Origin: Anaerolineae bacterium
Lineage (GTDB): Bacteria > Chloroflexota > Anaerolineae > JAAEKA01
DNA length: 64,000 nucleotides
Assembly (NCBI GenBank): GCA_049294015.1
Contig: JBAQCH010000345.1
Location: forward strand, 4,279-68,278
Reading direction: 5' to 3'
Positions 3-25,384 of this stretch are shown one piece after another (the first letter of the stretch is position 1; each line of letters begins with the position of its first letter). Position numbers and translations under genes: made by a program. Below the pieces are notes generated by a model. The model was not told the origin of the DNA, ran no database searches, and saw nothing but the letters and a program-made list of their open reading frames with translations.

Positions 3-174
3 AACCTGCTGGGCTTTTACGGCGCAACACCCATCACCCGTCCTGCTGCCTACACCTTCAGCAACGGCACGACGGATCGCACCATCAACTGCGACAGCAC
101 CACCGTGGCCGAGCTGGCCGACGTGGTCTACACCCTATGGAGCGACCTCAGGAACCTGGGGCTGCTGCAATAGA
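3..174 (+). CDS. 3' end (C-terminal ~57 aa) of an upstream gene that starts outside the window
   Basis: Frame 3 is open from the window edge to TAG at 172-174 (…TFSNGTTDRTINCDSTTVAELADVVYTLWSDLRNLGLLQ*). No function is recognisable. Confidence 0.3.
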
Positions 175-856
175 ACCTCGAAGGGGGATAGCCTTGCTAC
201 AACGAGTATTGATCATCAGCCCTGACATGGGGCTGGACGTACAGGATGAGATCATCAACGCCGCCTCCGGCTTCGCGCCCAAGATCCTGGCCAACACCGT
301 CACGCGCCAGCGCGCGCTGGAGGAGATCGCCAGCGGCCGGTACGATGTCATCCACTTCATCACCCACGGCAAAGAACACGTCCTCGAGGTCAGCGATGGC
401 ATCGTCGAGGAAGACATGCTGGAACACGCGGTCTGCACCGCCAACAACGTCAAGGTGCTCTTTCTGAACGCCTGCCGGAGCGCCCATGCCGCGACGACCG
501 TGTACAACAACACCAACGTGGCCTACTCCATCGGCTGGCCGGACGACGTCGAGAACAGGGTGGCGTTGACCTGGGCCAGGCTCTTCTTCGAGGCGCTGCG
601 CATGGCGCCTGAGGATATCAAGCGGGCGGTCACGACGGCCAACGAGGCCGTGGTCAAGAGCTACCGTATCGACCCGGATCAACTGCCCCTGGTGCTCAAC
701 GGCCGGGTGAGCCAGATCCTGAAGGAGAACCAGCGTCTCCGCCAGGAGTTGGAGCGCCGGGGCGTCGTCCGGCTGCCCCTCTGGATGGTGGCAGCCAATC
801 TGGCGCTGATCGCGCTATTGCTGGTCAACCTGCTGATCCTGGCCTTGACCCATTAG
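137..856 (+). CDS. Small caspase/CHAT-like (His-Cys dyad) protein with a C-terminal transmembrane anchor. A TTG at 194, preceded by a GGGGGA RBS, is an alternative start.
   Basis: HFITHG…LFLNACRS resembles the caspase-fold His…Cys catalytic dyad. The C-terminal hydrophobic helix is LWMVAANLALIALLLVNLLILAL. Composition is protein-like. Confidence 0.4.
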   Translation: MERPQEPGAAAIEPRRGIALLQRVLIISPDMGLDVQDEIINAASGFAPKILANTVTRQRALEEIASGRYDVIHFITHGKEHVLEVSDGIVEEDMLEHAVCTANNVKVLFLNACRSAHAATTVYNNTNVAYSIGWPDDVENRVALTWARLFFEALRMAPEDIKRAVTTANEAVVKSYRIDPDQLPLVLNGRVSQILKENQRLRQELERRGVVRLPLWMVAANLALIALLLVNLLILALTH

Positions 857-869
857 AGGAGGGAGACCT

Positions 870-3800
870 ATGAGACCTTGCTTCATCCGAGCGCTGGCCG
901 CCGCCGCGCTGGCGCTGCTGGCGCTGGCGGCCTGTGTGCTCAGGCCCGAACAACCCGACACCTTTCCTGTGCGCGCGGTGATCACGCCCGGCGCACCGGC
1001 CACGCCGTACGCGGGCGCCCAGCTCGACTACGGCGGCCTGTACCAGTTCTTCGACGTCGCCGGTAGCGCGCCGTCGCCCTACCAGGACGGCAGCCACCAG
1101 GTCATCCCCTGGTATCTGTTGGAACCCACACGGGGCACCTACGACTGGACTGAGCTGGACGAGTACGTGGCCGACCGCGCGGGGTATGGCCTGCACATCG
1201 GCCTGGGCTTCAACACGGTGGACTACTCGCCCTACCACTGCGCCAGCGTGGGCGGTAGCCAGTGCTGGGCCGGCGACGACCGGGAGGATCGCATCTGGCT
1301 GCCGGCCGACATGCTGCGGCCGCAGGACCAGAACGTGACCTACGTGGTCTGCCCGCTGGACAGCACCTACCCGCGCCACCGCCTGCCCAAGTATTGGAGC
1401 AGTCAGTATCTGTCAGCCTACGAGGATTTTGTTTACGCGCTGGCCGCGCACATCGACAGCACGCCTGCGCTTGCCAACAACATCGACTGGATCGAGCTGC
1501 CCATCGGCGTCTACGGCGAGCTCAACCCAGGCGCGGGCCAGGACAGGGCCTGTCTGCAGGAGCTGGGGCTGACGCAAGACTTGTGGGAGGCGACGGTCGA
1601 GCAGATGATCGATATCTGGGTGGACGCGTTCGCCGGCACCGGGATCGACCTGAGCTTCCAGGGCACCAACTTCTACCTGGACAAGGGCAACCGCCAGCGC
1701 ATGAACGACTACGCGGCCGGCCAGGGGCTGGGCTTGCAGCACGCCAAGTGGCATCCGGACTGGGAGGACATGGCTGTGGCCTGTGCGTCCTGCTGGTCGC
1801 AAGGCAAGGGCATGGTGGACGCGCCGCTGCGCTGGGAGAACCAGACCATGTTCGCCATCGAGTATCCTGATCCACCGCTGTGGGGGGAGGGCAGCCGCAC
1901 GACGCTCAACCACGCCGAGGAGGACTACTGGAACATGGCAGCCTTCCTCGATCTCAAGGGCGACGTCTACAAGGCGCGCCTCTACCCGCGCGGGACGCTC
2001 GCGCGCCTGACGACCGAGAATCCCTACGTGCAGGGTATGATGCAGACGCTGCGCGACCTGGCCGGCAAGGACGAGCAGAGCGCGCCCTACGCGATTACCT
2101 GGATGCGGGAGACGGAGTGGGACTGGTGGCCCAAGTGCAACAACTTCGACTTCTACCTCTACGCCAGCACCGCCCAGGAGCCGCGCGTGGGATCGAGCTG
2201 TCCTGGCCTGAGCGCGCTGACGACCGATGGCCAGGCTGTCGCGGTCTACAACCTGGACGCGACCTATGCCCCCGGCCTCTGCCCCAACGACCGCGTCTAC
2301 AGCGCGACCTGCGATCCACGCTACCGCTATGCCCGCCAGACCGCGGCCGGCCAGCCCTACATCTACCTGGACGTCGATCCCAGGTATCGCTACGGCACAG
2401 GCGTCAACGCCACCGTCTCCATCGACTACCTGGACGTGGGCACGGACGAGATTAGGTTTCAGTGGCACAACGGCAGCGCGGTGCAGACGGAGAGCAGGGC
2501 CAAGACCAACACGCGCCAGTGGCGCACCTGGACGCTTGTTCTGGCCAACATGGACCTGACCGACCGCTTTGTATCCGGCGCCTCCGCCTGGGACTTCCGT
2601 CTCTGGGACGGCGGCGACGGCGTCGAGACCATCCACAGCGTCAAGTTCCAGCCTGCTAACGGCGGGACGCCAGCGGCTCCCACGGCCACGCCGACGGCGA
2701 CGGCCACCCCTGCGCCGGCGGCCACACCCTGGCGCGTGCGCGTCGATCCCGCCAGTCACACTTGGGAGGATGCCCTGATCTGGCTGACCAGACCCGATAC
2801 CATCTATGCCTCCCTGCCCACCTATTCGCTGCGGGCCAACAGCGACCAGGCATACCCCGTACCCGTCTACAACACCACCGTCGCCAGCCTGCTGGTTGAG
2901 GTGCCGTTCAGCCTGCCGCCCAACACGACGCTCAACCGCGCCACGCTGTATCTGACCCCGACCGGCGGCTATCTGCCCGACGCCATGACCCTGGTGTTGC
3001 GGCCGGTGGTCGCGGAGTGGGCGTTGCCGTCGTGGCGCTATCGCATCAATCCCGATCCTGGTGTGGGCGGCGCAGCTGTCCCCTGGGCCACGCCCGGGGC
3101 CTATGGCGTGGACGATGTGGGCGCGTCCTTCGGCTCGGTGCGGATCACGGCTGACGACATCGCCGCTTCTCTCCCTATCGAGCTGGACGTGGGCGGCGCG
3201 GTGCAGGCGGGGGGCGGGCTGGCGCTCAAGATCGAGCCGTGGTGTACGCCCAGCCCATCAACGGGGCGCTGCGAGGGCTTTGCCTACTTCGCCGGGAGCG
3301 CCAACCAGAACCTGGGCATCCGGCCCTACCTGGAGCTGGATGTGATCAGCAACACGCCGCCCACGGCCACACCCACAGCCACGCGCACGCCGACGCCGGT
3401 GAGCGTACCGCCGGGAACGGCTACACCGACGGCCACGCCTGGCGGGCCAACCCGCACACCCACCCCCTACCCGCCCAGCTTGCGGCAGGGACTGGTGATC
3501 AACGAGGTGTGCTCCAATCCGGTGACGACCGACAACGTGCCTGACGGGGAGATATCGGGCGACAGCGCGGTGGAGCTGTTCAACTCCAGCAGCGAGCCGC
3601 TGGACCTGTCACTGTACCGGCTGTGCGTCAACACCACCTGCCTGTGGCTGGAGGGAACCACCCAGCCCTTGGGTTACAAGGTCTGGTATCAGCAGTGGGA
3701 CGGTTTGGGCTTCATCGAGGGCGGCGCCAACACCGTTCGCTTGTATCGGGCGGGGGAGTCTCCGCTGGTGTTGGTGGACACGCTGGCTATTCAGAGCCAA

Positions 3801-3899
3801 ACCCCTGATCACTGTTGGGCCGCGGTGACGGATGCCTCGCCGGTGTATGTGGAGAAGTATCCTCCAACGTTGGGCAGAGGCAATAACTGGTTCGAGTAA
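870..3899 (+). CDS. Secreted lipoprotein: TIM-barrel glycoside-hydrolase-like N-terminal domain (GH42/GH5-like W..LEP..G.YDW..LD motif), Pro/Thr-rich linkers and a C-terminal lamin-tail domain (LTD)
   Basis: Lipoprotein signal MRPCFIRALAAAALALLALAAC. WYLLEPTRGTYDWTELDEYV resembles GH TIM-barrel N-termini. PT linkers occur twice (TPAAPTATPTATATPAPAATP). The C-terminal LVINEV…VELFNSSSEPLDLSLYRL matches the LTD signature. Confidence 0.6.
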   Translation: MRPCFIRALAAAALALLALAACVLRPEQPDTFPVRAVITPGAPATPYAGAQLDYGGLYQFFDVAGSAPSPYQDGSHQVIPWYLLEPTRGTYDWTELDEYVADRAGYGLHIGLGFNTVDYSPYHCASVGGSQCWAGDDREDRIWLPADMLRPQDQNVTYVVCPLDSTYPRHRLPKYWSSQYLSAYEDFVYALAAHIDSTPALANNIDWIELPIGVYGELNPGAGQDRACLQELGLTQDLWEATVEQMIDIWVDAFAGTGIDLSFQGTNFYLDKGNRQRMNDYAAGQGLGLQHAKWHPDWEDMAVACASCWSQGKGMVDAPLRWENQTMFAIEYPDPPLWGEGSRTTLNHAEEDYWNMAAFLDLKGDVYKARLYPRGTLARLTTENPYVQGMMQTLRDLAGKDEQSAPYAITWMRETEWDWWPKCNNFDFYLYASTAQEPRVGSSCPGLSALTTDGQAVAVYNLDATYAPGLCPNDRVYSATCDPRYRYARQTAAGQPYIYLDVDPRYRYGTGVNATVSIDYLDVGTDEIRFQWHNGSAVQTESRAKTNTRQWRTWTLVLANMDLTDRFVSGASAWDFRLWDGGDGVETIHSVKFQPANGGTPAAPTATPTATATPAPAATPWRVRVDPASHTWEDALIWLTRPDTIYASLPTYSLRANSDQAYPVPVYNTTVASLLVEVPFSLPPNTTLNRATLYLTPTGGYLPDAMTLVLRPVVAEWALPSWRYRINPDPGVGGAAVPWATPGAYGVDDVGASFGSVRITADDIAASLPIELDVGGAVQAGGGLALKIEPWCTPSPSTGRCEGFAYFAGSANQNLGIRPYLELDVISNTPPTATPTATRTPTPVSVPPGTATPTATPGGPTRTPTPYPPSLRQGLVINEVCSNPVTTDNVPDGEISGDSAVELFNSSSEPLDLSLYRLCVNTTCLWLEGTTQPLGYKVWYQQWDGLGFIEGGANTVRLYRAGESPLVLVDTLAIQSQTPDHCWAAVTDASPVYVEKYPPTLGRGNNWFE

Positions 3900-4480: not shown

Positions 4481-8113
<3,633 letters not shown>

Positions 8114-8171
8114 CAGGTTGCTCAACAGTCGTTGCATCAAACCCATCGATGGTCAACAAGGAGAACGAAGC

Positions 8172-8813
8172 ATGTCCATTATCTGCAAACTGAGAGGACA
8201 CGACCTTGGCGACTGGCAATATCAGTCCGGGTCTGAGCGCTGTAACGCCAGCAGGTCCTGTCGCCGTTGCGACTTTGTCGAGCGAACCACTCCCCAGCAT
8301 GTCTGGAGTGAGTGGAGTCACACTGAGAGTGATCGATGCAAGCAAAGCAGAACGTGCGAAAAGTGTGCAAATCAGGAAGAACGCACGGTACACGTTTGGG
8401 GTCCACCTGAGTATGTAGAGGAGCGTGCTTGCACGCAGCAACGAGCGTGCCTTTCCTGCTCAGCAACAGAGCGCATGGGAGAACAACACGATTGGGGAGA
8501 GTGGACCTACCAACCCGGAGAGCCTTGTAAGGCAAGCCGAATATGTAGCCGATGTGAGTCGGCAGACGTCACAGAAACCCACTCTTTCAAGTTCCAATAC
8601 GCGTTTAGAGGTGTTGATCCGAGCACTCACCGATTAGCTCACCAGCTATTCTACGTGTGCTCACGGTGCAACGCAAAGAAAACGAACTGGGAGCCGCATG
8701 ACTGGGAGGTGAAAGAGGTGAAAAGAAGAGCCGATGGTAGTGTAATTGACGAGCGTGTTTACTGTGCGGTATGCGGCGCATGGGACTGGGGAAAAGAAGT
8801 GGCTGGGAGCTGA
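8172..8813 (+). CDS. Novel Cys/Trp-rich tandem-repeat zinc-ribbon protein, ~7 copies of a C-x4-C-x2-C…H-x-W-x-E-W module. Function unknown.
   Basis: An AAGGAG RBS lies 9 nt upstream of ATG 8172. Repeats include CNASRSCRRCDFVERTTPQHVWSEWSH, CKQSRTCEKCANQEERTVHVWGPPEY, CTQQRACLSCSATERMGEQHDWGEWTY and CKASRICSRCESADVTETH. G+C is lower than in the flanking genes. Confidence 0.55.
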   Translation: MSIICKLRGHDLGDWQYQSGSERCNASRSCRRCDFVERTTPQHVWSEWSHTESDRCKQSRTCEKCANQEERTVHVWGPPEYVEERACTQQRACLSCSATERMGEQHDWGEWTYQPGEPCKASRICSRCESADVTETHSFKFQYAFRGVDPSTHRLAHQLFYVCSRCNAKKTNWEPHDWEVKEVKRRADGSVIDERVYCAVCGAWDWGKEVAGS

Positions 8814-8908
8814 CGACGAGTTTACTCGCTACGCGCCCAGGGGGTTCCGGCCAAACCCGATCCTAACGAAATAACCAAGCCCGACCCTGTCGACCCTTAG
8901 CGTAGGAC

Positions 8909-11695
<2,787 letters not shown>

Positions 11696-11737: not shown

Positions 11738-14700
11738 ATGGGTGAAGTCGACCTGGCAATAGAAAGTGCCAAAAACCTGCGTCACAGCATAGAGGTCCAT
11801 GGGGGATCGGTCATGCTGGCAGAAGACCGGATGACGTTTTTCGATGACTACGACGCCCTGCGGAACATGCGCCACTACGCTCCTGACGACTACTGGAATC
11901 TGATCAGTCAAAAACCAGGTTTCGAGCGCGAACTCATCGAAGCTCGCAACCTGTTGGCAGCAGCGCAGAGCGATCTACGCAAGACCTTGGATTTCTTGCG
12001 CAAGCAGACTGATCTCTTACCACAACAGGTCAACGACATCGCCCATCTATTGGATGACTATGACCATTCGGGCGCTCAATTCAGGGCACGGGTGGAGGAA
12101 GCTGCTGCTCGTCGGGCTATGGAGGCATCGATCGCAGCAGCACGCGCCAATTGGCAGCGCACGCGCAGTTCGGCGGCGCGCGTGCAGTTGATTGCAGTGC
12201 TGACCCAGTACCAGAGGTGGAACGATCTGCTGCCCCTGGCGTTGGAGGATGTCCAGAACGCGCCCAATGATCGCCGGGCCAGGCAGTTGCTTGCCTCGGT
12301 GTATGAACATCTGGGAAAGCGCGACGATCTTCTGGCATTGCTCAAGCAGGACCTGGCCAGCGCGCCGGGGGACGCCGCGCTCCGGCGCAGGATAGCCGAG
12401 CTCTTGGTGCAGATGGGGCGTTACGATGAGGCAATTGGCCAGTTGCAGCAGGACATGGCTGCGCCCAGACCGGAGCCATGGGCGGCTGACTTGATGCTTC
12501 AAGCGCTGGAACGCGCTAAGAAGACCGATGCCCTGATCCTGTTTCTGCAAGGCCAGATGCAGGCTAATCCTTCGGATCCTCGCCGGCGACAGAAGCTGGA
12601 GACCGTGCTCGAGCAAGAGGCGCGATGGGGCGACTTGATTCCTCTCCTGGAACAAGACCTGCAAACAAGTCCGGGCAATAGCGCGCTGCGCGAGCGGTTG
12701 GCTGTCAGCTATCGCAAGAGTGGGAGGCTCGACGATCTGCTGAACCATCATCTGTTGCCTGCCGCCAAGCAAGCTCCCGCTGAGTTCCCACCCAAACAGG
12801 CCGTGGTAGAGGCGCTTCTGGATGGACAGCGCGATACCGATGTGCTCGGTTACATCAAGCAAGAGCTGGCTGCTTCTCAGACAGGCGCAGGGTTTCTGTC
12901 CAGGTTCGTCGCCGTTCTGGCGAAGCGGAAAAGGTCCGATCTGGTCGAGCCATTGGCGATGTCTTGTCTGCCGTCGAGCCTTGGACGGATGGACGCCTAC
13001 ATGGAGATTGCACGCGGCTATCGTCAGAACGACGAGGTAAAGGCAGCGCTGGCCTTCCTGGACGCCATGGGCCAACGCTTCCCTGACGACAAAACTGTCG
13101 GGGATCTTCCCGCCGCGTTTCTGGTCGAATCGTTGGAGACAGCATCCTCAACGACGCGCTCGTTCGTGTTGAAACAGCTTTACGCTCGACCCGACAAGAC
13201 TCGCGCAGTCGTTGCGCTTAACGAGTTGTTCGCAAAGACGAACGACGTGAACGTGCAGCTTGACGTGTTGGCTGCACTGGTGGAAATCCAGAAGGCTCAG
13301 GCGCTGCCCTTCCTCAAAGCTTCACTTAGCCATAGCTCCAAGGAGGTGCGTCGCGAGGCCGCCAAGGCTCTTGGCCAGCTCGGCGACAAGCGCGCCAAGC
13401 GACCGTTGCGGCGGCAGCTCAAGGTCGAGCAGGATGCCTCGGTCAAGGTTGCACTCAAGGATGCTTTGCATCAGATCGATCCGAAGGCCAAGGAACATCC
13501 ACCGCTGACGGCTAGCTCGGTCGTCAAAGCCATGATTGGAGGGGGCTTGCTGGGAGCTATATGGGGATGGGTGCAGACATTCTTCTGGATCAGTCCGGGA
13601 CTATCGGATGGTTCGATCACCTTGATCTTGGGCGCTATTTCTGGGGCAGTCATCTTTGGCTTTCCGATTAGTGTCGTGCGGCCAAGCAAGAGCCAGGACG
13701 ATGGATGCTTGACTCTTTTCGGTGGCGGAGCTGTGACCGGTGGCGTTGTTGGAATCGCAATGATCTTGCTCATGCCAATTCTGATTGGATCCTCCATGCT
13801 CTCGTTCGGCTATATTAACGATAATGTCACGATCATCATGAGCGCAGCGATGGCCGCAGTGCTTTCAGTGCTTGGCGTCATCGTCTTCAAAACCAAGCGC
13901 TTTTGGATCTTGCCGGTGACTGGTCTGCTTCTGGTGGCAGTGGTCATTCTCCCGGTCATTCTCCCGGTGGCCGGTTGGACCAGCCGCATGGCCGACGTAA
14001 TCGCTCAGGGAAGAGCAGGTCTAGCTGCCATGTTCGATAAGACGTCGAACAGTTCGCAAAACGAGGAGATGGTAGTAGCTACGAACACAGCCACTCCTAT
14101 GGTGGAAGCTACGCGTTCGGACTCACCAACGCCACAGCCAACGCTAACCGTACCCGCTGGCGTCCCGGCGACTGCCCAGAGCGCCAAAGTGATGAGCGTC
14201 ACTGACGGTCGCGCAATCCGGGTGGAGCTTGTCGATGGCACGGCCACCGTTCGCTATGCTGGCCTGCTCATTCCGACAGGTGACACCCCGGGCGCCGCTG
14301 CCGCCGCGCAGGCAAACCGCGATCTCCTTCACAACCAGTCGGTTTGGCTCGAAACGACAAATCCCGTCCCAGCAGGCGCAGACGTCGAAGCCCAAATCTG
14401 GCTGGCCGCTGGAACGTTGGCCAATCTGCAGCTTGTCGAAATGGGCTACGCGCTACCTGATCCTACGCTGGAAGATGAAAGCGCTGCATCGCGACTACAG
14501 CAGGCGGCCCGTGAGGCATGGGAGGCGCAAGCGGGTTTCTGGGCCGGCGGCACGGATGTCGCGCCCTGGGCAGCGGTGGTGGTTGACACCGCTAACATCC
14601 GCCAGGGACCAGGTACTGATCGTCCGGTGGCTGGAAAGGCTACCCGCAGCGACATCTTCGTGATCAATGGGCGCAACGCCAACGGCGATTGGATCCTGGT

Positions 14701-14791
14701 CCAAACCTCTGCGGAGACAACAGCCTGGCTTTTTGCGGAGCTTGTGCAAACAACAGTGCCGGTAGCGACCATTCCGGTCGTCACGAACTAG
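11738..14791 (+). CDS. Multidomain membrane protein: N-terminal TPR-like ~40-aa repeats plus HEAT (PBS-lyase-type) repeats, a central block of ~5 transmembrane helices, then a C-terminal SNase (thermonuclease)-like domain followed by a bacterial SH3 (SH3b) domain
   Basis: Repeats DLLALLKQDLASAPGDAALRRRIAELLVQMGRYDEA and DLIPLLEQDLQTSPGNSALRERLAVSYRKSGRLDDL. HEAT segment EVRREAAKALGQLGDKRAKRPL. Hydrophobic helices span aa ~600-740. VTDGRAIRVELVDGTATVRYAGLLIPTGDTPGAAAAAQANRDLL…QLVEMGYA follows the SNase pattern V.DGDT…VRLIGID.PE, but Gly sits where the catalytic Glu is expected. ANIRQGPGTDRPVAGKA…GDWILV matches SH3b. Confidence 0.55.
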   Translation: MGEVDLAIESAKNLRHSIEVHGGSVMLAEDRMTFFDDYDALRNMRHYAPDDYWNLISQKPGFERELIEARNLLAAAQSDLRKTLDFLRKQTDLLPQQVNDIAHLLDDYDHSGAQFRARVEEAAARRAMEASIAAARANWQRTRSSAARVQLIAVLTQYQRWNDLLPLALEDVQNAPNDRRARQLLASVYEHLGKRDDLLALLKQDLASAPGDAALRRRIAELLVQMGRYDEAIGQLQQDMAAPRPEPWAADLMLQALERAKKTDALILFLQGQMQANPSDPRRRQKLETVLEQEARWGDLIPLLEQDLQTSPGNSALRERLAVSYRKSGRLDDLLNHHLLPAAKQAPAEFPPKQAVVEALLDGQRDTDVLGYIKQELAASQTGAGFLSRFVAVLAKRKRSDLVEPLAMSCLPSSLGRMDAYMEIARGYRQNDEVKAALAFLDAMGQRFPDDKTVGDLPAAFLVESLETASSTTRSFVLKQLYARPDKTRAVVALNELFAKTNDVNVQLDVLAALVEIQKAQALPFLKASLSHSSKEVRREAAKALGQLGDKRAKRPLRRQLKVEQDASVKVALKDALHQIDPKAKEHPPLTASSVVKAMIGGGLLGAIWGWVQTFFWISPGLSDGSITLILGAISGAVIFGFPISVVRPSKSQDDGCLTLFGGGAVTGGVVGIAMILLMPILIGSSMLSFGYINDNVTIIMSAAMAAVLSVLGVIVFKTKRFWILPVTGLLLVAVVILPVILPVAGWTSRMADVIAQGRAGLAAMFDKTSNSSQNEEMVVATNTATPMVEATRSDSPTPQPTLTVPAGVPATAQSAKVMSVTDGRAIRVELVDGTATVRYAGLLIPTGDTPGAAAAAQANRDLLHNQSVWLETTNPVPAGADVEAQIWLAAGTLANLQLVEMGYALPDPTLEDESAASRLQQAAREAWEAQAGFWAGGTDVAPWAAVVVDTANIRQGPGTDRPVAGKATRSDIFVINGRNANGDWILVQTSAETTAWLFAELVQTTVPVATIPVVTN

Positions 14792-14811
14792 ACGCATGAC
14801 GAGAGATCACC

Positions 14812-15852
14812 ATGGCACATCAGTCAACGAGCAAGGAGGAATGGGCAACAGCAGCAGCCGAGAATGCTGCTACCTTGAGACACGAGATCAACCGTCTGAA
14901 GTCGGATTACGGTCCATCCTTGATGTCTGGACGCGATTATGCTGGTTTCTTTGCTCATGCCAAGCAAATCTCTGAGTTGTTCAAGGCGCTTAAGCCTTTG
15001 AAGTGGGAAGTAAGGGAAGAGCTATGGTCAGATTTCAATCAAACCTGCGATGAAGTACGCCGAGCCAGCGATAGTGAGCAGGAGAATCGTCGTTACAGGT
15101 CTGCGGAGGTCAAAGAGGTGGCGCTTCGTCTTATAAGGGTCGCCACTACATCGGCGGAAGTAGCTGCTGATCGTGACGATGTTCAGAGAGCGAGAGATGC
15201 CTTCAACGAGGCTCACGATTGGCTCCGTGAGCACGCGGGCGAGTTGTTGAGAAACGACGCGAAATTGTGCTGGGATCAGTTTCACGACGGAAAACGCACG
15301 CTTGGCTTTCGAATCGAGCAGCTTCAGGACTGGGCCTATAAAGAGGCGCGTCAAGCGATCCAAGAAGCACGCCGTGCTCTGGGTCGTGACGACCCATTCG
15401 CAGCCCTCAAGGAGATCAAAGCTGCGCAACACAGTTGTAAGGGCCTTTATTTGCGCAAGGATCAAAGCGAAGAGATACGCAGCGAATTCACCGAAATCTG
15501 GGAACAAGCTCAAGAGAACATTGATGAGTATCGTCGTGAGCAGGCCAGAAGACATGAAGAGTATCTCGAACGTCAAGCTGAGAGAGAGAGAAAGCATCAG
15601 GAATGGGTCAGGCGGCAACAGGAGCATATTGAACGATGGTCAAGCAAGGTTGATCGGCTCGAGCAAGTTATCCGAAGCCTGGAGGACCAAATCAGCGATT
15701 TGGAGTATAAGCGTTCCACAGCTCGGAACCGCGACTTTGCTGAGAACTGCGCAGATTGGATCCGCGAAAAACATGCGAAGATCGCTGATATCGAGGAGAC
15801 AATTCGCGACTTAAACAATCGCATCCGAGATGTTCAGCATCAAATCCACTAG
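14812..15852 (+). CDS. Coiled-coil protein of unknown function, Glu/Arg/Gln-rich, probably co-transcribed with 11738..14791
   Basis: It starts 21 nt after the preceding stop. Long heptad-like charged segments appear (EYRREQARRHEEYLERQAERERKHQEWVRRQQEHIERW). Confidence 0.5.
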   Translation: MAHQSTSKEEWATAAAENAATLRHEINRLKSDYGPSLMSGRDYAGFFAHAKQISELFKALKPLKWEVREELWSDFNQTCDEVRRASDSEQENRRYRSAEVKEVALRLIRVATTSAEVAADRDDVQRARDAFNEAHDWLREHAGELLRNDAKLCWDQFHDGKRTLGFRIEQLQDWAYKEARQAIQEARRALGRDDPFAALKEIKAAQHSCKGLYLRKDQSEEIRSEFTEIWEQAQENIDEYRREQARRHEEYLERQAERERKHQEWVRRQQEHIERWSSKVDRLEQVIRSLEDQISDLEYKRSTARNRDFAENCADWIREKHAKIADIEETIRDLNNRIRDVQHQIH

Positions 15853-16013
15853 CGGACAGGAGGTAGATATGACATATTGATTCTAAGCATTGAGTTTTCC
15901 GGCTCGTCGACATGTGGATGCCCCACATCATGGTTGACGCAGGAGATAAGGTGCGCTACAAGCGCAGCCGTCCAGTCGCCAACTAACCCATCAGCAAACA
16001 GGAGAGTTGAACC

Positions 16014-17525
16014 GTGAAGATCAAGCTCATTTCCATCGTGCTCGTGTCAGCCTTTCTGGCAGCGCTAGCAGGCTGCGTTGCCCCGCCCGCGTCAGCTCCC
16101 CCTTCTCCACAAGGGGAGACCACAGAATCTGCAGCTGTCGTTTCTACTGAGAGCGCCACGGGCCAGGAACCAGTGAGAATCACTTTTTGGGAGTGGTTTG
16201 GCGGCGCGTGGGGCGATTTCTTTGAGGAGGAAGCCCAGAGATTTCACGCCGCACATCCAGATGTTGTCGTAGAAGTGTCCCATTTTCCTGACCAAAGCGC
16301 CTATCGTGAAGTGCTCGCGCTCGCTTTCGAGTCAGGTAGCGCGCCGGACACATTCCTAAGGCGCCACACATTCAGCCAGGTTTTCGAGAACGGGTGGGCT
16401 CAGTCAATCGATCCTTGGTTAACGCCAGAGTGGCTGGCGAAGTTTCCTGAGGCTTCGTTTGTTGAGACCAAGAACGTCTGGGATGGAAGAACCTACGCGT
16501 TTCCCGTAACGGCGCTCAAGTTAGATCGAGTAATCTACGTGAACGAGGACATGTTCCGGGCCGCTGGCCTGACTGATGCAGAGGGCAACATCACGGTACC
16601 TGAGACCTGGGATGATCTGAGGTCAATGGCAAAGAAGATCACTGAAACGGGCAACGGAGCCTACTATGGCATCGGAATCGGCATCAAAGATCCTCGCCAG
16701 ATGAGTTGGTGGTTCGATCTGGCGGACCTTGCGGGAGCTTCAGGTACTTACGAATTTGACTATCGAACTGGTGCCTACAATTTTGGCACCGACCCTGCTT
16801 TTTCCCGCGTAATCGAGCTCCTGCTTGGCATGAAGGCTGACGGAAGTGTCTATCCCTATGAAAGCACACTGGATGACAGTAATTTATACACTGGGTTTGG
16901 TCAAGGTCAGTACGCGATGTTTTTGAGTGGTTCTTGGACAGCGAGTAATCTGGAACGGGACTTTCCCGAGCTGAAAAACTACCGCATTATTCCGCTTCCG
17001 ATTCCAGACGAAGGACGCCAAGGGGGGTTACCGTACACACCGGGCAGTGGGCAGTACTACATGTCGGCAACGACCCAGTATCCTGATGAAGCCTGGCTGT
17101 GGCTGGATTGGATATCTTCACGTGGATTTCATGAGCGCATGGTCTCCAAGGCATTGGATTACTCTGTATACCCCGACCTAAACACTGCCGACCTAATGAC
17201 TGATCCAATCCAGCGCCAAGCCTACGATGCCTTGTTCCAGTACCTTGTTTCGTTACCATCACCTACAGTTCGCAATCCTGAGACGACCGCAGTGATACCG
17301 GGTCCTGTGATTCCGGATACCGGCGATGTCTTGGTGGGGATTTATACCGGGCAGATCAAGGACTGGGAAAATGCGTTACTAGACCTCGATGCGAGGAAGC
17401 AAGCCGCTTTTGATGCAGCCATCGAGAAAGCTCAAAGCGAAGGCGCTGATGTCAGCATTGAGGACTTCGTCTTTCCGGATTGGAACCCCATGGAAAACTA
17501 CATAACGGTGCCAGAAGGTCCATGA
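16014..17525 (+). CDS. ABC transporter extracellular solute-binding lipoprotein (family-1 sugar SBP)
   Basis: GTG start with an AGGAG RBS. Lipobox LAALAGC. Typical SBP composition. Two permease genes lie downstream. Confidence 0.8.
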   Translation: MKIKLISIVLVSAFLAALAGCVAPPASAPPSPQGETTESAAVVSTESATGQEPVRITFWEWFGGAWGDFFEEEAQRFHAAHPDVVVEVSHFPDQSAYREVLALAFESGSAPDTFLRRHTFSQVFENGWAQSIDPWLTPEWLAKFPEASFVETKNVWDGRTYAFPVTALKLDRVIYVNEDMFRAAGLTDAEGNITVPETWDDLRSMAKKITETGNGAYYGIGIGIKDPRQMSWWFDLADLAGASGTYEFDYRTGAYNFGTDPAFSRVIELLLGMKADGSVYPYESTLDDSNLYTGFGQGQYAMFLSGSWTASNLERDFPELKNYRIIPLPIPDEGRQGGLPYTPGSGQYYMSATTQYPDEAWLWLDWISSRGFHERMVSKALDYSVYPDLNTADLMTDPIQRQAYDALFQYLVSLPSPTVRNPETTAVIPGPVIPDTGDVLVGIYTGQIKDWENALLDLDARKQAAFDAAIEKAQSEGADVSIEDFVFPDWNPMENYITVPEGP

Positions 17526-17670
17526 GGAGACTTCACCCACCGTGCAGGGCCGGAACATCGGCGTGATGATGAAGCCAGATCCTAACTAGACCTGGATCGT
17601 CGAGAGAGTATGGAAAGTGACTAGGCGGCTGGAATGCTTCTGCCGCCTGGTCACTTCCAGTGGAGTCACA

Positions 17671-18582: not shown

Positions 18583-18600
18583 GTGAAGGAGCGTGCTTCA

Positions 18601-19503: not shown

Positions 19504-22500
19504 ATGGCGCTAACCAATCGTGACCGCGTCGGCAAGGCGCTTGAGCTACTGCAGCAGGGTCTTCGCCCCTACGTCCAGCGCGAGATGGAGGCGGAGTATC
19601 GTTCAGCCTGGCTGAAGCAGGCCGCTTACAGCCTGCACAAGGACGAGGGCTGGGCCGACAGCGACCCGTTTCTGGACGCCCAGGCGCTGCTAGTCATCAT
19701 GTGGGACCAGTGGAATAGCGTCTTCAAGGAGACCTTAGGCTTCGCCGAGCGCGCCATCGTCAGTGAACTACGCGAGGCGCGCAACACTTGGGCGCATCAG
19801 GCTCCGTTCACCACCGACGACGCCTACCGCGCCCTGGACAGCATCGCCCGCCTTTTGACCGCGATCTCAGCGCCCGAAGCCCAAGAGGTCGAGCGCCAAA
19901 AGCAGGAGCTGCTGCGCCTCAAATTCGAGGAGCAGGCCCGCCACGAGCGCCGCAAAGCTGCCATCGCGCCCACCGAGGGCCGGCCCAGCGGCAGCCTCCT
20001 CCCCTGGCGCGAGGTGGTGACGCCCCATCCCGACGTGGCCTCGGGCCGCTACCTGCAGGCCGAGTTTGCGGCCGACCTGTGGCAGGTCTACATGGGCGAA
20101 GGCGCCGGCGAGTACCGCGACCCGCTCCAGTTCTTCGAGCGCACTTTCATCACCGATGGCCTGCGCCGGCTGCTGGTCAACGCGCTGCGCCGCCTGGACG
20201 GCCAGAACGCCGACCCCGTGATCGAGCTACAGACCAACTTCGGCGGCGGCAAGACCCACTCCATGCTGGCCCTGTTCCACCTGTTTTCTGGCGCTCCCGT
20301 AGGCCGTCTCGCCGGCGTCGAGCCGCTGGTGCGCGAGGCCGGCGCCGCGCCGCCGCCGACCGTTCACCGGGCCGTGCTGGTGGGCAACAAGATTTCGCCC
20401 GGCCAGCCCAGCCGCAAGCCGGACGGCACGGTGGTCCACACGCTGTGGGGCGAACTGGCCTGGCAGTTGGGCGGGGCCGAGGCCTATGCCCTGCTGGCCG
20501 ACGACGACCGCAACGCCACCAACCCTGGCGACCCACTGCGTCTGCTGTTCAACCGCTACGCCCCTTGCCTCCTCCTGGTCGACGAGTGGGTGGCCTACGC
20601 CCGCCAGTTGCACGACCGGGCCGATCTGCCGGGCGGCTGCTTCGACACCCACTTCACCTTTGCCCAGACCCTGACCGAGGCCGCCAAAGCTGCCGATCGC
20701 TGCCTGTTGGTGGTCTCCATGCCCGCCAGCGAGATCGAGATGGGCGGCGAGCGCGGCAAGGTCGCGCTGGACCGGCTCAAGAACGCTATCGGCCGGCTGG
20801 AGTCGCCCTGGCGGCCGGCCAGCGCTGAAGAGGGCTTCGAGATCGTGCGCCGCCGCCTGTTCCAGCCGCTGACCGACACCAGCAAGTTCGCCGCGCGCGA
20901 CCTGGTGGTGGGCAGCTTTGCCCGCATGTACCGCGAACAGCCGCAGGACTTCCCGGCCGAGACGCGCGAGGGCGCGTACGAGCGGAGGATGCAGGCGGCC
21001 TATCCCATCCACCCGGAGTTGTTCGACCGGCTGTATAGCGAGTGGTCCAGCCTGGAGAAGTTTCAGCGCACGAGAGGCGTACTGCGCCTGATGGCCGCGG
21101 TGATCCACGCCCTGTGGGAGCGCGGCGACAGCAATCTGCTGATCCTGCCGGCCACCGTGCCCATCGACGACGCCAACGTCCAAGCCGAACTGACCCGCTA
21201 CCTGGACGACAACTGGGTACCCGTGATCGAGCGGGACGTGGACGGCCCGGCCAGCCTGCCCCTCAAGCTGGATCGCGACAACCCGACCCTGGGTCGCTTC
21301 TCGGCCAGCCGCCGCGTGGCGCGCACCATCTACCTGGGATCGGCCCCCACTGCCAAGGCCAGCAACCCCGGCATCGACGACCGGAGCATTCGCCTGGGCT
21401 GTGCGCAGCCGGGCGAGAACGTGGCCGCCTTCGGCGATGCGCTGCGCCGCCTGACCGACAACGCCACCCACCTCTACGTGGATCGCAGCCGCTACTGGTA
21501 CAACACCCAGCCCAGCGTCGGTCGCCTGGCCCAGGACCGCGCCGCGCAGATGGATCGCGAAGATCACATCTGGCCGGAACTCAAGCGTCGGCTGCGCGCA
21601 GACCGCCAGCGTGGAGAGTTCAGCGCCGTCCATGCCGCGCCTGACTCCAGCGGCGACGTCCCTGACGAGATGACGACGCGTCTGGTGATCTTGGGACCGG
21701 GCTACCCGCACACACGGCGCGATCCCGCCAGCAAAGCACTGTCCGAAGCTAGGAGCATCCTGGCCTGGCGCGGCAGTGCGCCGCGGCTGTATCAGAACAT
21801 GGTGGTCTTCTTGGCCCCGGACAGTAACCGGCTGCCGGAGCTAGAAGACGCCATCCGCCATTACCTGGCGTGGAAGTCCATCGACGACGAGAAGGACACC
21901 CTGAACCTGGATACCTTCCAGCGCAACCAGGCCAAGACCAAGCACGAGCAGGCCGACCAGACGGTCAACGCTCGCATCAAGGAGGCCTACGTCTGGTTGC
22001 TCTCGCCGCACCAAGAGGATCCCCAAGACCCGCAAACGCTCAACATCGACGAGGCCAAGCTGGCGGGGCAGGACAGCCTGGCGGTGCAGGCCAGCCGCAA
22101 GCTCAAGAACGAGGACTGGCTGAGCACCGAGTTCGGCGGCGTGCCGCTGCGCATGGCGATGGATCGCTACAACCTGTGGCAGGGCGCCGAGCGCGTCCTC
22201 CTGCGCCAATTGTGGGAGTACTTTGCCCGCTACCCCTACCTGCCCCGCCTGTGCGCCCAAGACGTGCTGCTGGGAGCGGTGCAGAACGGCGTCGGTCAGA
22301 TTACCTGGCACGAGAACTTCGCTTACGCGGCCGGCTGGGACGACAGCCGCCAACGCTACCTGGGGCTGCGGGCGGGAGAGAACACCAGCGTGCTGCTGGA
22401 CGGCCAGAGCCTGCTGGTCAAACCGGCGGCCGCCCAGCGCCAGATCGACGCCGACCGTCAGGAGCAGGAGAAACGCACGCCACCGCCGGGAGGTGAGGGC

Positions 22501-22812
22501 ACAGGTACGACCGTGAGGACGCCGCCGCCTGGTGGAGAAACACCACCGCCGCCCGATCCTCAGCCACCTGTCGTTAGGCATCGCCGTTTCCACGGTTCGG
22601 TCAAGCTGGACACATTACGACTGTCATCCCAGGCCGGCGCTGTCCACGAGGCCGTCGTCCAGCATCTGCAAAGCCTGGTGGGAGCGGAGGTGCAGGTCAC
22701 GCTGGAAATCCAGGCCTACCTGCCTGATGGCGCGCCGGAGAATGTGGTGCGGACGGTGACTGAGAATGCGCGGACGCTGAGGTTCGAGGGCTTTGGGTTT
22801 GAGGACACGTAA
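19504..22812 (+). CDS. DUF499-family protein: N-terminal Swt1-like HEPN domain plus P-loop ATPase, the ATPase component of the helicase-methylase-ATPase defence triad
   Basis: HEPN Rx4H motif REARNTWAHQ. Walker A TNFGGGKTHS. The overall ~1100-aa architecture is typical of DUF499. GGAG RBS before ATG 19504. Confidence 0.8.
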   Translation: MALTNRDRVGKALELLQQGLRPYVQREMEAEYRSAWLKQAAYSLHKDEGWADSDPFLDAQALLVIMWDQWNSVFKETLGFAERAIVSELREARNTWAHQAPFTTDDAYRALDSIARLLTAISAPEAQEVERQKQELLRLKFEEQARHERRKAAIAPTEGRPSGSLLPWREVVTPHPDVASGRYLQAEFAADLWQVYMGEGAGEYRDPLQFFERTFITDGLRRLLVNALRRLDGQNADPVIELQTNFGGGKTHSMLALFHLFSGAPVGRLAGVEPLVREAGAAPPPTVHRAVLVGNKISPGQPSRKPDGTVVHTLWGELAWQLGGAEAYALLADDDRNATNPGDPLRLLFNRYAPCLLLVDEWVAYARQLHDRADLPGGCFDTHFTFAQTLTEAAKAADRCLLVVSMPASEIEMGGERGKVALDRLKNAIGRLESPWRPASAEEGFEIVRRRLFQPLTDTSKFAARDLVVGSFARMYREQPQDFPAETREGAYERRMQAAYPIHPELFDRLYSEWSSLEKFQRTRGVLRLMAAVIHALWERGDSNLLILPATVPIDDANVQAELTRYLDDNWVPVIERDVDGPASLPLKLDRDNPTLGRFSASRRVARTIYLGSAPTAKASNPGIDDRSIRLGCAQPGENVAAFGDALRRLTDNATHLYVDRSRYWYNTQPSVGRLAQDRAAQMDREDHIWPELKRRLRADRQRGEFSAVHAAPDSSGDVPDEMTTRLVILGPGYPHTRRDPASKALSEARSILAWRGSAPRLYQNMVVFLAPDSNRLPELEDAIRHYLAWKSIDDEKDTLNLDTFQRNQAKTKHEQADQTVNARIKEAYVWLLSPHQEDPQDPQTLNIDEAKLAGQDSLAVQASRKLKNEDWLSTEFGGVPLRMAMDRYNLWQGAERVLLRQLWEYFARYPYLPRLCAQDVLLGAVQNGVGQITWHENFAYAAGWDDSRQRYLGLRAGENTSVLLDGQSLLVKPAAAQRQIDADRQEQEKRTPPPGGEGTGTTVRTPPPGGETPPPPDPQPPVVRHRRFHGSVKLDTLRLSSQAGAVHEAVVQHLQSLVGAEVQVTLEIQAYLPDGAPENVVRTVTENARTLRFEGFGFEDT

Positions 22813-24905: not shown

Positions 24906-25384
24906 GGTTGTGATGCCCTCTTCTGCATCGTGCTGTACACCGTTGGCGTAGCAGAAACAGTCATTTCGGCCACCGGCATACTCGCCATTCCGATCAACCG
25001 CGCCTCACCCACCACTTCCAACCCCAGCACGCCATGCCCCCGATCTACTGACCGGTCAGCCTACCGCCCCGGCGCGCCACTTCCTTGCCAGTCTTGGTGT
25101 TACAATCACAACTCCAAGCCCTCGTATGCAAGCGGGCTGGCACGAGGTGCGGATTCTTGGGGACCGAATGTGATGGGGTATTGCGCGGGCGGTGGAAGAG
25201 TGGTATGATGATCATGAGTGTCTGCAAACCGCGGTGAGCCACGCAGGTTTCGGCACGACGCCCCGCATACGAAAGAAAGCGGAATTGCGAGTTGGCGGGA
25301 AATGACGACCGGCATTACCTCCAATCACGTAGTTAGGCGGTCCTCCTTTCTCCAGATAAGATCTTTGCGCAAGGAGAAGATTCC

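What the first reader, a model, noticed from the sequence alone, without database searches (positions are those of the whole stretch)
8172..8813. Novel Cys/Trp tandem-repeat zinc-ribbon protein wedged between the defence helicase and methylase
This 213-aa protein is built almost entirely from ~7 repeats of a ~28-30 aa module, C-x4-C-x2-C …(E/T)…H-x-W-(S/G)-E-W. It has its own strong RBS and a clearly lower G+C than its neighbours. I do not recognise the repeat as a described domain. Its position inside a defence operon makes it a candidate accessory such as a sensor or nucleic-acid binder, or an anti-defence passenger.
Basis: seen in the sequence. Interest (0 to 1): 0.6.

Follow-up and report, generated by a model that had tools for sequence, protein, structure and literature searches.

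The report
Zinc-stapled repeat protein, defence-operon cargo
This is a real gene for a small protein made of repeated zinc-binding beta-hairpins, from a large family that no domain database describes. It was picked up from another organism and sits in a known cargo slot of an anti-phage (Hma) operon, with no sign that it is a regular part of that system.

Summary
The ORF at 8172-8813 is real: 213 aa, AAGGAG ribosome-binding site, GC3 0.55 against 0.85 for its neighbours. There are four canonical units, C-x5-C-x2-C-x8/9-H-x-W (not C-x4-C), with a 31-32 aa period, plus an N-terminal C..H half-site and two degenerate C-terminal units.

It is not an orphan. Exhaustive phmmer finds 641 representative clusters. 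Pfam, NCBIfam, PADLOC and PDB have no significant match; there is only a weak DUF1660/phrog_2670 match to residues 1-53. AlphaFold2 with a 73-sequence alignment gives pLDDT 92, an all-beta hairpin array with no PDB fold match.

From strand register and family statistics I infer six interleaved zinc sites that use all 17 Cys and 7 His.

The flanking genes are HmaA, HmaB and HmaC (a DUF499-centred BREX-related system), whose intergenic gaps are a published insertion hotspot. None of 74 family loci carries Hma genes. None of six other Hma loci carries this gene. No phage or plasmid homologues were found.

Verdict: horizontally acquired cargo from an undescribed zinc-ribbon-like repeat family, probably a non-catalytic binding scaffold. 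A dedicated Hma accessory or anti-defence role is unsupported but not excluded.

The parts
8158..8163 (+). Ribosome-binding site AAGGAG, 8 nt upstream of the ATG
   Evidence: Read directly from the sequence.
8172..8813 (+). Complete CDS (213 aa plus stop) of the Cys/His/Trp repeat protein
   Evidence: The identical protein occurs on two independent metagenome contigs with the same neighbours. The AF2 model has pLDDT 92.1.
8172..8240 (+). N-terminal cap (residues 1-23). It carries the half-site C5..H10 and W15 and has no CxxC of its own.
   Evidence: C5, H10 and W15 are at least 90% conserved. In the family, 91% of first knuckles have a His 16-27 residues upstream. Weak matches to DUF1660 and phrog_2670.
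8241..8336 (+). Unit 1 (residues 24-55): C24-x5-C30-x2-C33-x9-H43-x-W45..W48
8337..8429 (+). Unit 2 (residues 56-86): C56-x5-C62-x2-C65-x8-H74-x-W76
8430..8525 (+). Unit 3 (residues 87-118): C87-x5-C93-x2-C96-x9-H106-x-W108..W111
8526..8639 (+). Unit 4 (residues 119-156): C119-x5-C125-x2-C128-x8-H137, followed by an elongated hairpin (strands 139-148 and 155-163)
8640..8741 (+). Variant unit 5 (residues 157-190): H157-x5-C163-x2-C166-x9-H176-x-W178. A His replaces the first Cys.
   Evidence: Homologues have Cys or His at the position of H157.
8742..8810 (+). C-terminal cap (residues 191-213): lone knuckle C198-x2-C201 with W204 and W206
   Evidence: In the family, 79% of last knuckles lack their own first Cys and 82% lack a following His.
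4481..8113 (+). hmaA: SNF2 helicase with a NOV_C nuclease-like C-terminus (upstream neighbour, context only)
   Evidence: PADLOC HmaA 1620.7 bits. Pfam SNF2-rel_dom, Helicase_C and NOV_C.
8909..11695 (+). hmaB: DUF1156 N6-adenine methyltransferase (downstream neighbour, context only)
   Evidence: PADLOC HmaB 1217.7 bits. Pfam DUF1156.
19504..22812 (+). hmaC: HEPN_Swt1 + DUF499 ATPase, the third core gene. It is separated from hmaB by 7.8 kb of low-GC cargo.
   Evidence: PADLOC HmaC 1082 bits. Pfam HEPN_Swt1 and DUF499.

Best explanation
The ORF is a genuine, horizontally acquired gene. It encodes a stand-alone member of a large family of cytoplasmic zinc-ribbon-like tandem repeats that no curated database describes.

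Proposed structure. Each 31-32-aa unit forms a beta-hairpin with a C-x2-C knuckle at its tip. The first Cys of the unit and the His that follows the hairpin face each other at its base. Each zinc ion is held by the base pair of unit i (Cys, His) plus the tip knuckle of unit i+1. The sites are therefore chained and interleaved. The chain starts with a C..H half-site and ends with a lone CxxC.

For this protein the predicted sites are:
- {C5, H10, C30, C33}
- {C24, H43, C62, C65}
- {C56, H74, C93, C96}
- {C87, H106, C125, C128}
- {C119, H137, C163, C166}
- {H157, H176, C198, C201}

That is five Cys3His sites and one Cys2His2 site. They use all 17 Cys and 7 of 9 His.

Proposed function. The result should be a rigid, non-catalytic beta-ribbon rod that acts as a binding or adaptor surface. 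The ligand is unknown.

Locus. The gene landed in the hmaA-hmaB insertion hotspot of an Hma (DUF499-centred BREX-related) system and is probably co-transcribed with it. It is cargo, not a core or conserved Hma component.

Shown: the gene, the repeat, family membership, compositional foreignness, the Hma context, the absence of co-occurrence, and the confident beta-hairpin model.
Inferred: zinc binding, the interleaved ligand sets, co-transcription, and the scaffold or binding role.
For: Gene and repeat.

Family:
- 641 representative clusters at E<=1e-3, 257 at E<=1e-10.
- Among 646 units in the top 150 hits, the first spacing is x5 in 616 and the period is mostly 31-33.
- Unit consensus: HxWGxWxYxxxxSCxQxRxCxRC.
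- The ligand residues are at least 90% conserved.

Structure:
- pLDDT 92.1 and pTM 0.65 with the alignment, against 37.7 without it.
- The DSSP register puts C119 opposite H137 and H106 opposite C125 (my reading).

Interleaving, from knuckle statistics over 152 arrays:
- Last knuckle: own first Cys in 21%, following His in 18%, preceding His in 86%.
- First knuckle: preceding His in 91%.
- Token strings such as chcKhcKhcKhcKhK recur.
- 140 of 162 arrays end in an extra CxxC.

Foreign origin:
- GC3 is 0.547, against 0.85 (hmaA), 0.86 (hmaC) and 0.86-0.88 (recD2, dnaB).
- The closest full-length homologue, P0006, lies on a 52% GC contig.

Hotspot:
- PMC11232893.
- Different or no cargo in the same gap in L008, L006, L005 and L007.

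Operon:
- Same strand, with gaps of 58 and 95 nt.
- No sigma-70-like promoter and no plus-strand terminator in 7900-9100.

Non-catalytic: there is no enzyme-family hit, and conservation is confined to ligand, aromatic and Arg/Gln/Glu positions.
Against: - No coordinates were available, so the ligand sets rest on strand register and statistics, not on measured distances.
- Zinc binding has not been measured.
- Lack of co-occurrence rests on short metagenome contigs (median 3.8 kb) and only six other Hma loci. A lineage-specific functional recruitment cannot be excluded.
- Some family members are fused to DarT, an HNH nuclease, a UvrD-like helicase, NDT-like domains or EAD7. That hints at a conflict-system or nucleic-acid role, which would make the operon position less accidental.
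Confidence: 0.55

Rival explanations
1. Dedicated Hma accessory. The zinc-repeat rod binds DNA or a phage component and tunes or triggers the HmaA helicase-nuclease or the HmaB methylase. It would act as a sensor or specificity factor recruited in this lineage.
For: - It is wedged co-directionally between hmaA and hmaB with short gaps, its own RBS and no intervening terminator.
- The same arrangement is seen in two independent samples.
- Relatives are fused to DNA- or nucleotide-directed enzymes: DarT, HNHc_6, UvrD/AAA_30 and Nuc_deoxyrib_tr.
- The R-x-C-x-R-C-G knuckle resembles those of RNA- and DNA-binding zinc ribbons, at sub-threshold level only.
Against: - 0 of 74 family loci contain HmaA, HmaB or HmaC.
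- 0 of 6 other Hma loci contain the gene.
- The gap is a general cargo hotspot.
- GC3 is 0.30 lower than the Hma genes, which indicates recent arrival.
- The net charge is about -2 (30 Lys+Arg against 32 Asp+Glu), which is not typical of a DNA binder.
- The closest orthologue-like genes sit in a non-defence neighbourhood.
Confidence: 0.15
2. Independent conflict-system cargo. It would be a self-standing defence-related module (decoy, sensor or adaptor) that uses the Hma hotspot only as a landing pad, like the Septu, PARIS or GmrSD insertions reported in other hma loci.
For: - Hotspot cargo is often defence genes.
- L006 carries a GmrSD-like gene in the same gap.
- 9 of 150 family members carry EAD7.
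- In L016 an array-EAD7 protein sits next to an EAD7-CHAT protease.
- Tandem array genes carry NDT-like C-terminal effector-type domains.
Against: - This protein has no EAD or effector domain.
- Neighbours of family members are heterogeneous: 65 Pfam families among 108 neighbours, none seen more than 3 times.
- The PADLOC library has no match.
- A 213-aa non-enzymatic protein acting alone is an unlikely complete defence system.
Confidence: 0.15
3. Anti-defence passenger of phage origin. It would be a phage-derived inhibitor, for example a DNA mimic or binder, left behind in the defence operon.
For: - Low G+C.
- Residues 1-53 match a phage protein family of unknown function, phrog_2670 (E 9.6e-5), and weakly match Pfam 'Prophage protein' DUF1660.
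Against: - No tblastn match in 50,697 phage genomes, with this protein or with a short family member.
- A family pattern that recovers 77 of 150 representatives gives zero hits in 2.9 million IMG/VR contigs but at least 120 in metagenomes.
- No integrase or other phage genes flank it.
- An inhibitor kept inside the operon it inhibits would be counter-selected.
Confidence: 0.04
4. Iron-sulfur or redox protein. The C-x5-C-x2-C triads would bind Fe-S clusters, as in some ferredoxins and radical-SAM variants.
For: CX5CX2C is a known Fe-S motif in the literature. The protein is cytoplasmic and Cys-rich.
Against: - In the confident model the first and second Cys of a triad lie six residues apart on one beta-strand, too far apart to share one cluster.
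- A conserved His completes each set of four ligands.
- The same repeat occurs in secreted Firmicutes wall proteins with signal peptides, SLH and Big_2 domains.
- The half-site and lone-knuckle cap logic fits mononuclear tetrahedral sites.
Confidence: 0.04

Closest known systems
Classical zinc ribbon (rubredoxin-like knuckles on a three-stranded antiparallel sheet, e.g. ribosomal uS14, eL40, eS27a, RNA polymerase Rpo1N/RPA12)
   Same: There is a C-x2-C knuckle at a beta-hairpin tip with the flanking signature R-x-C-x-R-C-G. The topology is short three-stranded sheets. The last two knuckles (C163xxC166 ... C198xxC201) resemble a four-Cys ribbon. In homologue P0006 that region weakly hits Lar_restr_allev.
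   Different: - Each unit has only one knuckle. The other two ligands are a lone Cys and a lone His from the previous unit.
- The sites are chained along 4-9 units instead of forming one autonomous domain.
- Profile matches to solved zinc ribbons stay sub-threshold (best E 0.4).
- Foldseek finds no whole-chain PDB match.
Pfam DUF1660 (PF07874, 'Prophage protein') / PHROG phrog_2670
   Same: The N-terminal cap plus first unit (residues 1-53) aligns to the first ~47 positions of both profiles. Two of the 150 relatives pass at E<=1e-3 (best 1.3e-6).
   Different: - The score here is 13.6 bits, against a Pfam cut-off of 21.4.
- Those families are ~65-aa single modules from phages. This protein is a 213-aa multi-unit array.
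- The array itself is not found in phage collections.
Unnamed H-x-W ... C ... C-x2-C repeats of secreted Firmicutes wall and S-layer proteins (with Big_2, SLH, Flg_new, CW_binding_2 or S8 peptidase domains)
   Same: They have the same motif and period, e.g. GHSWGSWAVTTPATCTAAGTETRICSRCGETETRPIAALGH. The family profile detects them at E 1e-13 to 1e-55. The best BFVD structural hit is an SLH-domain protein (E 1.7e-8).
   Different: - They are extracellular, with signal peptides.
- They are interspersed with a second repeat variant.
- They form part of proteins above 1000 aa.
- Pfam does not model them either.
Cross-braced or interleaved zinc modules (RING/PHD, plant SBP domain, DnaJ Cys-rich domain)
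   Same: In my model the ligands of one site are interrupted in sequence by ligands of the neighbouring site. This is established knowledge for the named domains and an inference for this protein.
   Different: Those are closed two-zinc domains. Here the interleaving propagates as an open chain of six or more sites, capped by half-sites. There is no sequence or fold match.
Cargo genes of the hmaABC insertion hotspot (Septu, PARIS, Ppl, AAA_21 pairs, GmrSD-like; PMC11232893)
   Same: It sits in the same position, between hmaA and hmaB, and is compositionally foreign. Other Hma loci fetched here carry GmrSD-like or ParA-like/AlbA_2-like genes there.
   Different: The known cargo is recognisable defence systems. 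This gene matches no PADLOC model and has no enzymatic domain.

Membership tests
Undescribed C-x5-C-x2-C...H-x-W repeat family (defined here by the phmmer hits) | Tandem units of 31-33 aa with C-x5-C-x2-C-x8-10-H-x-[WFY] | tested here: met
   Four canonical units with periods of 32, 31 and 32. Best non-self hits have E 7e-36 to 1e-30.
Undescribed C-x5-C-x2-C...H-x-W repeat family (defined here by the phmmer hits) | An N-terminal C..H half-site directly after the start codon (no signal peptide) and a terminal lone CxxC knuckle | tested here: met
   C5..H10 and C198-x2-C201. The same caps appear in relatives.
Hma / DUF499-centred BREX-related system (as a component) | Conserved co-occurrence with the HmaA helicase, HmaB DUF1156 methylase and HmaC DUF499 ATPase | tested here: not met
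   0 of 6 other Hma loci encode it. 0 of 74 family loci encode HmaA, HmaB or HmaC. There is no PADLOC model.
Classical zinc ribbon | Two CxxC/CxxH knuckles from one autonomous ~30-50 aa domain that bind one zinc | tested here: inconclusive
   There is one knuckle per unit. Profile matches to solved zinc ribbons cover only the knuckle, at E 0.4-4.5. No coordinates were available to measure geometry.
Pfam DUF1660 / phrog_2670 | Score above the family threshold over the whole ~65-aa module | tested here: not met
   Pfam gives 13.6 bits against a 21.4 cut-off, E 0.1. PHROG gives E 9.6e-5 but covers profile positions 1-47 of 66 only.
Phage-encoded anti-defence protein | Homologues encoded in phage genomes | tested here: not met
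   No INPHARED match. Zero IMG/VR pattern matches, against at least 120 in metagenomes.
EAD-coupled conflict-system component (Kaur et al. 2020, PMC7159879) | Presence of an effector-associated domain that pairs with the same EAD in a core component | tested here: not met
   This protein has no EAD. EAD7 is present in 9 of 150 relatives and in the L016 gene pair.
Zinc metalloprotein | Stoichiometric Zn2+ bound by Cys/His | not testable with these tools
   This is inferred only, from invariant Cys and His residues and the cap logic.

The most novel reading that the evidence does not exclude
The family would be a new structural class: an open, serially cross-braced chain of Cys3His zinc sites that builds a rigid beta-ribbon rod. 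Prokaryotic conflict systems would use it as a recognition module. In this lineage it would have been recruited as an Hma (BREX-related) accessory that senses a phage molecule or DNA state and gates the HmaA helicase-nuclease.
Probability: 0.1. Interest if true: 0.75.

Novelty: new variant of a known kind. Interest (0 to 1): 0.45.

Why it matters
If the interleaved model holds, this is a previously unmodelled way to build a long rigid protein from zinc sites: each metal staples two successive repeats.

The family is large, with at least 641 clusters at 50% identity. It includes cytoplasmic arrays fused to conflict-system adaptors and DNA-directed enzymes, and also secreted wall proteins of gut Firmicutes. 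No Pfam, NCBIfam or PDB entry covers it. A Pfam-style family definition and one solved structure would annotate thousands of hypothetical proteins.

For defence biology the result is mainly cautionary. Lying inside an Hma operon is weak evidence of function, because the gaps of that operon are cargo hotspots.

Tried and rejected
Searches that found nothing:
- The word-indexed homology search found only the protein itself.
- A profile version returned mostly secreted Firmicutes proteins and few family members.
- Single-sequence AF2 was useless, with pLDDT 37.7.
- Foldseek against PDB gave only noise hits to beta-propellers, with TM about 0.12.
- The search for related loci with the family alignment failed, because no stretch was conserved enough. 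I replaced it with a degenerate DNA pattern.
- PDB sequence searches of three large tandem-array proteins found nothing.
- Literature searches for the motif and for zinc-ribbon arrays found no description of this repeat.

Host taxonomy could not be resolved. The closest RecD2 relatives (81-92% identity) are all unnamed metagenome proteins.

Ideas rejected:
- A link between this gene and the downstream TPR/HEAT/SNase gene, suggested by the HEAT-repeat neighbours of orthologue-like genes. There is no homology between them.
- A spurious ORF.
- An Fe-S protein.
- A phage anti-defence gene.

The imperfect 15-nt direct repeat flanking the gene (8040-8054 / 8854-8868, 80%) may be chance. I did not treat it as an insertion scar.
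Full report
**1. Observation**

The window has an ATG-initiated ORF at 8172-8813 on the + strand. It encodes 213 aa and is preceded by AAGGAG at 8158-8163. The protein is 8.0% Cys (17 residues), 4.7% Trp (10) and 4.2% His (9).

- There are four canonical units, C-x5-C-x2-C-x8/9-H-x-W. Their first Cys residues are at 24, 56, 87 and 119, giving periods of 32, 31 and 32.
- Before them lies a half-unit, C5..H10..W15.
- After them come a variant unit, H157-x5-C163-x2-C166-x9-H176-x-W178, and a lone knuckle, C198-x2-C201.
- No shuffle out of 100,000 reproduced four such motifs.

G+C is 0.54 and GC3 is 0.547. The comparison GC3 values are 0.85 for hmaA, 0.86 for hmaC, and 0.86-0.88 for recD2 and dnaB elsewhere in the window. 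The gene is therefore compositionally foreign.

**2. Context**

The flanking genes are an Hma system as PADLOC defines it:
- HmaA (4481-8113): 1620.7 bits, with SNF2, Helicase_C and NOV_C domains.
- HmaB (8909-11695): 1217.7 bits, a DUF1156 methylase.
- HmaC (19504-22812): 1082 bits, HEPN_Swt1 + DUF499.

A 2026 study reclassifies Hma as DUF499-centred BREX-related systems (PMC12839542).

Between hmaB and hmaC lie 7.8 kb of further low-GC3 genes. So the operon is split by cargo at both junctions. This matches the one experimental Hma paper, which reports that 66.5% of hma systems carry inserted genes and calls the region a defence-gene insertion hotspot (PMC11232893).

I fetched six other loci that encode HmaB relatives. 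Their hmaA-hmaB gaps differ:
- L008 holds a 425-aa gene (not scanned; AlbA_2-like by eye) and a ParA-like gene.
- L006 holds a frameshifted GmrSD-like (DUF262/DUF1524-type) gene.
- L005 holds about 3.7 kb of other genes.
- L007 holds nothing.
- None encodes a relative of the repeat protein.

The gene is co-directional with hmaA and hmaB, separated by gaps of 58 and 95 nt. No sigma-70-like promoter and no plus-strand terminator is predicted nearby. Co-transcription is plausible but untested. The identical protein with the same neighbours occurs on two Logan contigs from different runs.

**3. Is it a known domain?**

Pfam, NCBIfam, PADLOC and PDB sequences give no significant match. Two weak signals exist:
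- Residues 1-52 match Pfam DUF1660 ('Prophage protein') at E 0.1 and 13.6 bits, below the cut-off of 21.4.
- Residues 1-53 match phrog_2670, of unknown function, at E 9.6e-5.

Profile searches of PDB, with both the 32-column unit and the whole array, return only sub-threshold matches. These align the R-x-C-x-R-C-G knuckle to zinc ribbons of uS14, eL40, eS27a and archaeal RNA polymerase. Literature searches found no description of the repeat.

**4. It belongs to a large family**

The word-indexed search saw only the protein itself. Exhaustive phmmer against 1.84 billion representatives found 641 proteins at E<=1e-3, 257 at E<=1e-10 and 5 at E<=1e-30.

In the best 150 hits:
- The unit is very regular. 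Of 646 units, 616 have C-x5-C, the third Cys to His spacing is 8-10 residues, and the period is mostly 31-33.
- The consensus is HxWGxWxYxxxxSCxQxRxCxRC.
- Proteins carry 2-9 units, most often 4.
- Most start directly with M-x(3-15)-C-x3-G-x-H-x-x-W, with no signal peptide.
- The Cys and His positions of the query are at least 90% conserved.
- A subgroup (P0006, P0135/P0170, P0017, P0083, P0098, P0125) shares the query's whole architecture, including the C-terminal cap.

The family profile also detects long secreted Firmicutes proteins that carry the same repeat. These have signal peptides and Big_2, SLH, Flg_new, CW_binding_2 or S8 peptidase domains, and Pfam leaves the repeat unmodelled in them too. 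The best hit in the viral structure library is one such SLH protein (E 1.7e-8).

**5. Structure**

- In each unit the long strand runs from the first Cys to the second Cys.
- The C-x2-C knuckle forms the hairpin tip.
- The return strand ends two residues before the His.
- This places the first Cys opposite the unit's own His at the hairpin base (for example C119 opposite H137).
- The H-x-W-x-x-W-x-Y segment that follows pairs with the next unit's long strand. That brings the His next to the next unit's knuckle (H106 opposite C125).

Two Cys residues six apart on one strand cannot share a metal. So the self-contained reading (C-x5-C-x2-C..H binding one ion) is geometrically unlikely. The alternative is that each site comprises {first Cys of unit i, His of unit i, knuckle of unit i+1}.

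This model predicts that a chain must begin with a lone Cys/His pair and end with a lone knuckle. The protein shows exactly that pattern. The six sites are:
- {C5, H10, C30, C33}
- {C24, H43, C62, C65}
- {C56, H74, C93, C96}
- {C87, H106, C125, C128}
- {C119, H137, C163, C166}
- {H157, H176, C198, C201}

Together they consume all 17 Cys and 7 of 9 His.

The family agrees with the model. Over 152 arrays:

| Knuckle position | Own first Cys | His following | His preceding |
|---|---|---|---|
| First | 96% | 97% | 91% |
| Internal | 93% | 87% | 98% |
| Last | 21% | 18% | 86% |

The first knuckle has a preceding His in 91% of arrays even though no knuckle comes before it. Ligand token strings such as chcKhcKhcKhcKhK recur. 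An extra terminal CxxC follows 140 of 162 arrays.

Zinc itself is inferred, not shown.

**6. What do relatives tell about function?**

Domain fusions. Most of the 150 relatives have no other Pfam domain. The exceptions are:

| Fused domain | Number of proteins |
|---|---|
| EAD7 | 9 |
| DarT | 1 |
| Nuc_deoxyrib_tr | 1 |
| UvrD/AAA_30 | 1 |
| HNHc_6 | 1 |
| DnaJ | 1 |

EAD7 is one of the effector-associated adaptor domains described for NTP-dependent conflict systems (PMC7159879).

DNA pattern scan. A degenerate pattern for the unit recovered 77 of 150 representatives in silico. It gave at least 120 metagenome stretches, of which 80 were fetched as loci, but none in 2.9 million IMG/VR viral contigs.

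The 80 fetched loci:
- 74 have a tblastn hit to the protein, and none has HmaA, HmaB or HmaC. The contigs are short, however (median 3.8 kb).
- The 108 flanking ORFs hit 65 different Pfam families, none in more than three loci. The recurrent ones include CHAT (3), EAD7 (2) and small GTPases (3).
- In L016 a protein with a TM helix, 2 units, EAD7 and 4 more units sits next to an EAD7-CHAT protease.
- A recurrent pair of adjacent array genes exists, about 400 aa plus 700-1000 aa. The larger gene carries a helical region and, judged by eye from motifs shared with P0130 and P0133, two NDT-like domains.

Orthologue-like genes. P0006 and P0170 share a different neighbourhood: a GerE-type response regulator, a HisKA_3 kinase, small membrane proteins, and HEAT_2 and NosD/beta-helix proteins. 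P0010 lies in a cyanobacterium-like island of toxin-antitoxin genes near cas1/cas2.

Mobile elements. Phage genomes and plasmids give no tblastn match.

**7. Interpretation**

The evidence best fits a horizontally acquired cargo gene from an undescribed zinc-ribbon-like repeat family. It most likely encodes a non-catalytic, metal-stapled rod that serves as a binding or adaptor surface.

A dedicated Hma role is possible. It rests only on position and on a handful of DNA-enzyme fusions in distant relatives, and the co-occurrence tests were negative.

A phage anti-defence origin has almost no support. An Fe-S role conflicts with the predicted geometry, the conserved His residues and the secreted homologues.

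**8. Novelty and score**

Zinc-binding beta-hairpin modules are a known kind. The chained, interleaved arrangement and the family itself appear to be undescribed in the libraries and literature I could search. I rate it a new variant of a known kind.

Interest is moderate (0.45). It is a sizeable unannotated family with an unusual, testable architecture. There is no demonstrated function, and nothing supports the defence-accessory reading that made it stand out.

Noticed in passing
window 11738-19443: A 7.8-kb block of lower GC3 (0.54-0.66) splits hmaB from hmaC. It holds a 1017-aa TPR/HEAT/SNase/SH3 protein (weak PADLOC 'SNc+LTD' hit), a 346-aa coiled-coil protein (weak LmuB hit), and an ABC transporter solute-binding protein with two permeases. 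This looks like a second cargo insertion in the same operon.
   Followed up: partly
window 19504-22812: HmaC carries an N-terminal Swt1-like HEPN RNase domain fused to the DUF499 ATPase. This is the architecture first noted for these systems according to PMC12839542.
   Followed up: partly
window 23021-25933: Three genes with very low GC3 (0.44-0.50) lie directly after hmaC: 193 aa, 443 aa, and 182 aa with DUF4760. They have no other annotation and are probably further island cargo.
   Followed up: no
window 137-3899: A small (239 aa) CHAT-like caspase-fold protein with an HG...C dyad and a C-terminal transmembrane helix is followed by a 1009-aa protein with no family match. Both have host-like GC3 and lie just upstream of hmaA. 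This may be another conflict module.
   Followed up: partly
window 10000-10600: G+C dips to 0.50-0.55 inside hmaB, which lowers its GC3 to 0.76. This could be a swapped variable (target-recognition-like) segment.
   Followed up: no
window 8040-8054 and 8854-8868: An imperfect 15-nt direct repeat (AACCCGATTTTGACG / AACCCGATCCTAACG, 80%) brackets the repeat-protein gene. It could be an insertion scar or chance.
   Followed up: no
L016 1920-3945 (-): A family member with an N-terminal TM helix, two units, an EAD7 domain and four more units lies next to an EAD7-CHAT protease. This is an EAD-coupled gene pair of the kind described by Kaur et al. 2020.
   Followed up: partly
L041, L046, L050, L066, L081, L088 and others: Tandem pairs of array genes recur. 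A ~380-450-aa protein (4 units plus a variable, often lipocalin-like C-terminus) is followed by a 700-1000-aa protein (array, helical region and, by eye, two NDT-like domains). No PDB sequence match was found for the large ones.
   Followed up: partly
P0151, P0152, P0160, P0162 (proteins): Long secreted Firmicutes proteins (S8 peptidase, Big_2, SLH, Glug) contain dozens of copies of the same H-x-W...C...C-x2-C repeat, alternating with an H-x-Y...T-C-T variant. Pfam does not model the repeat there either.
   Followed up: partly
window 26329-28527 (-): The DnaB-like replicative helicase is 732 aa, with an extra C-terminal AAA/STAND-like P-loop region after DnaB_C.
   Followed up: no
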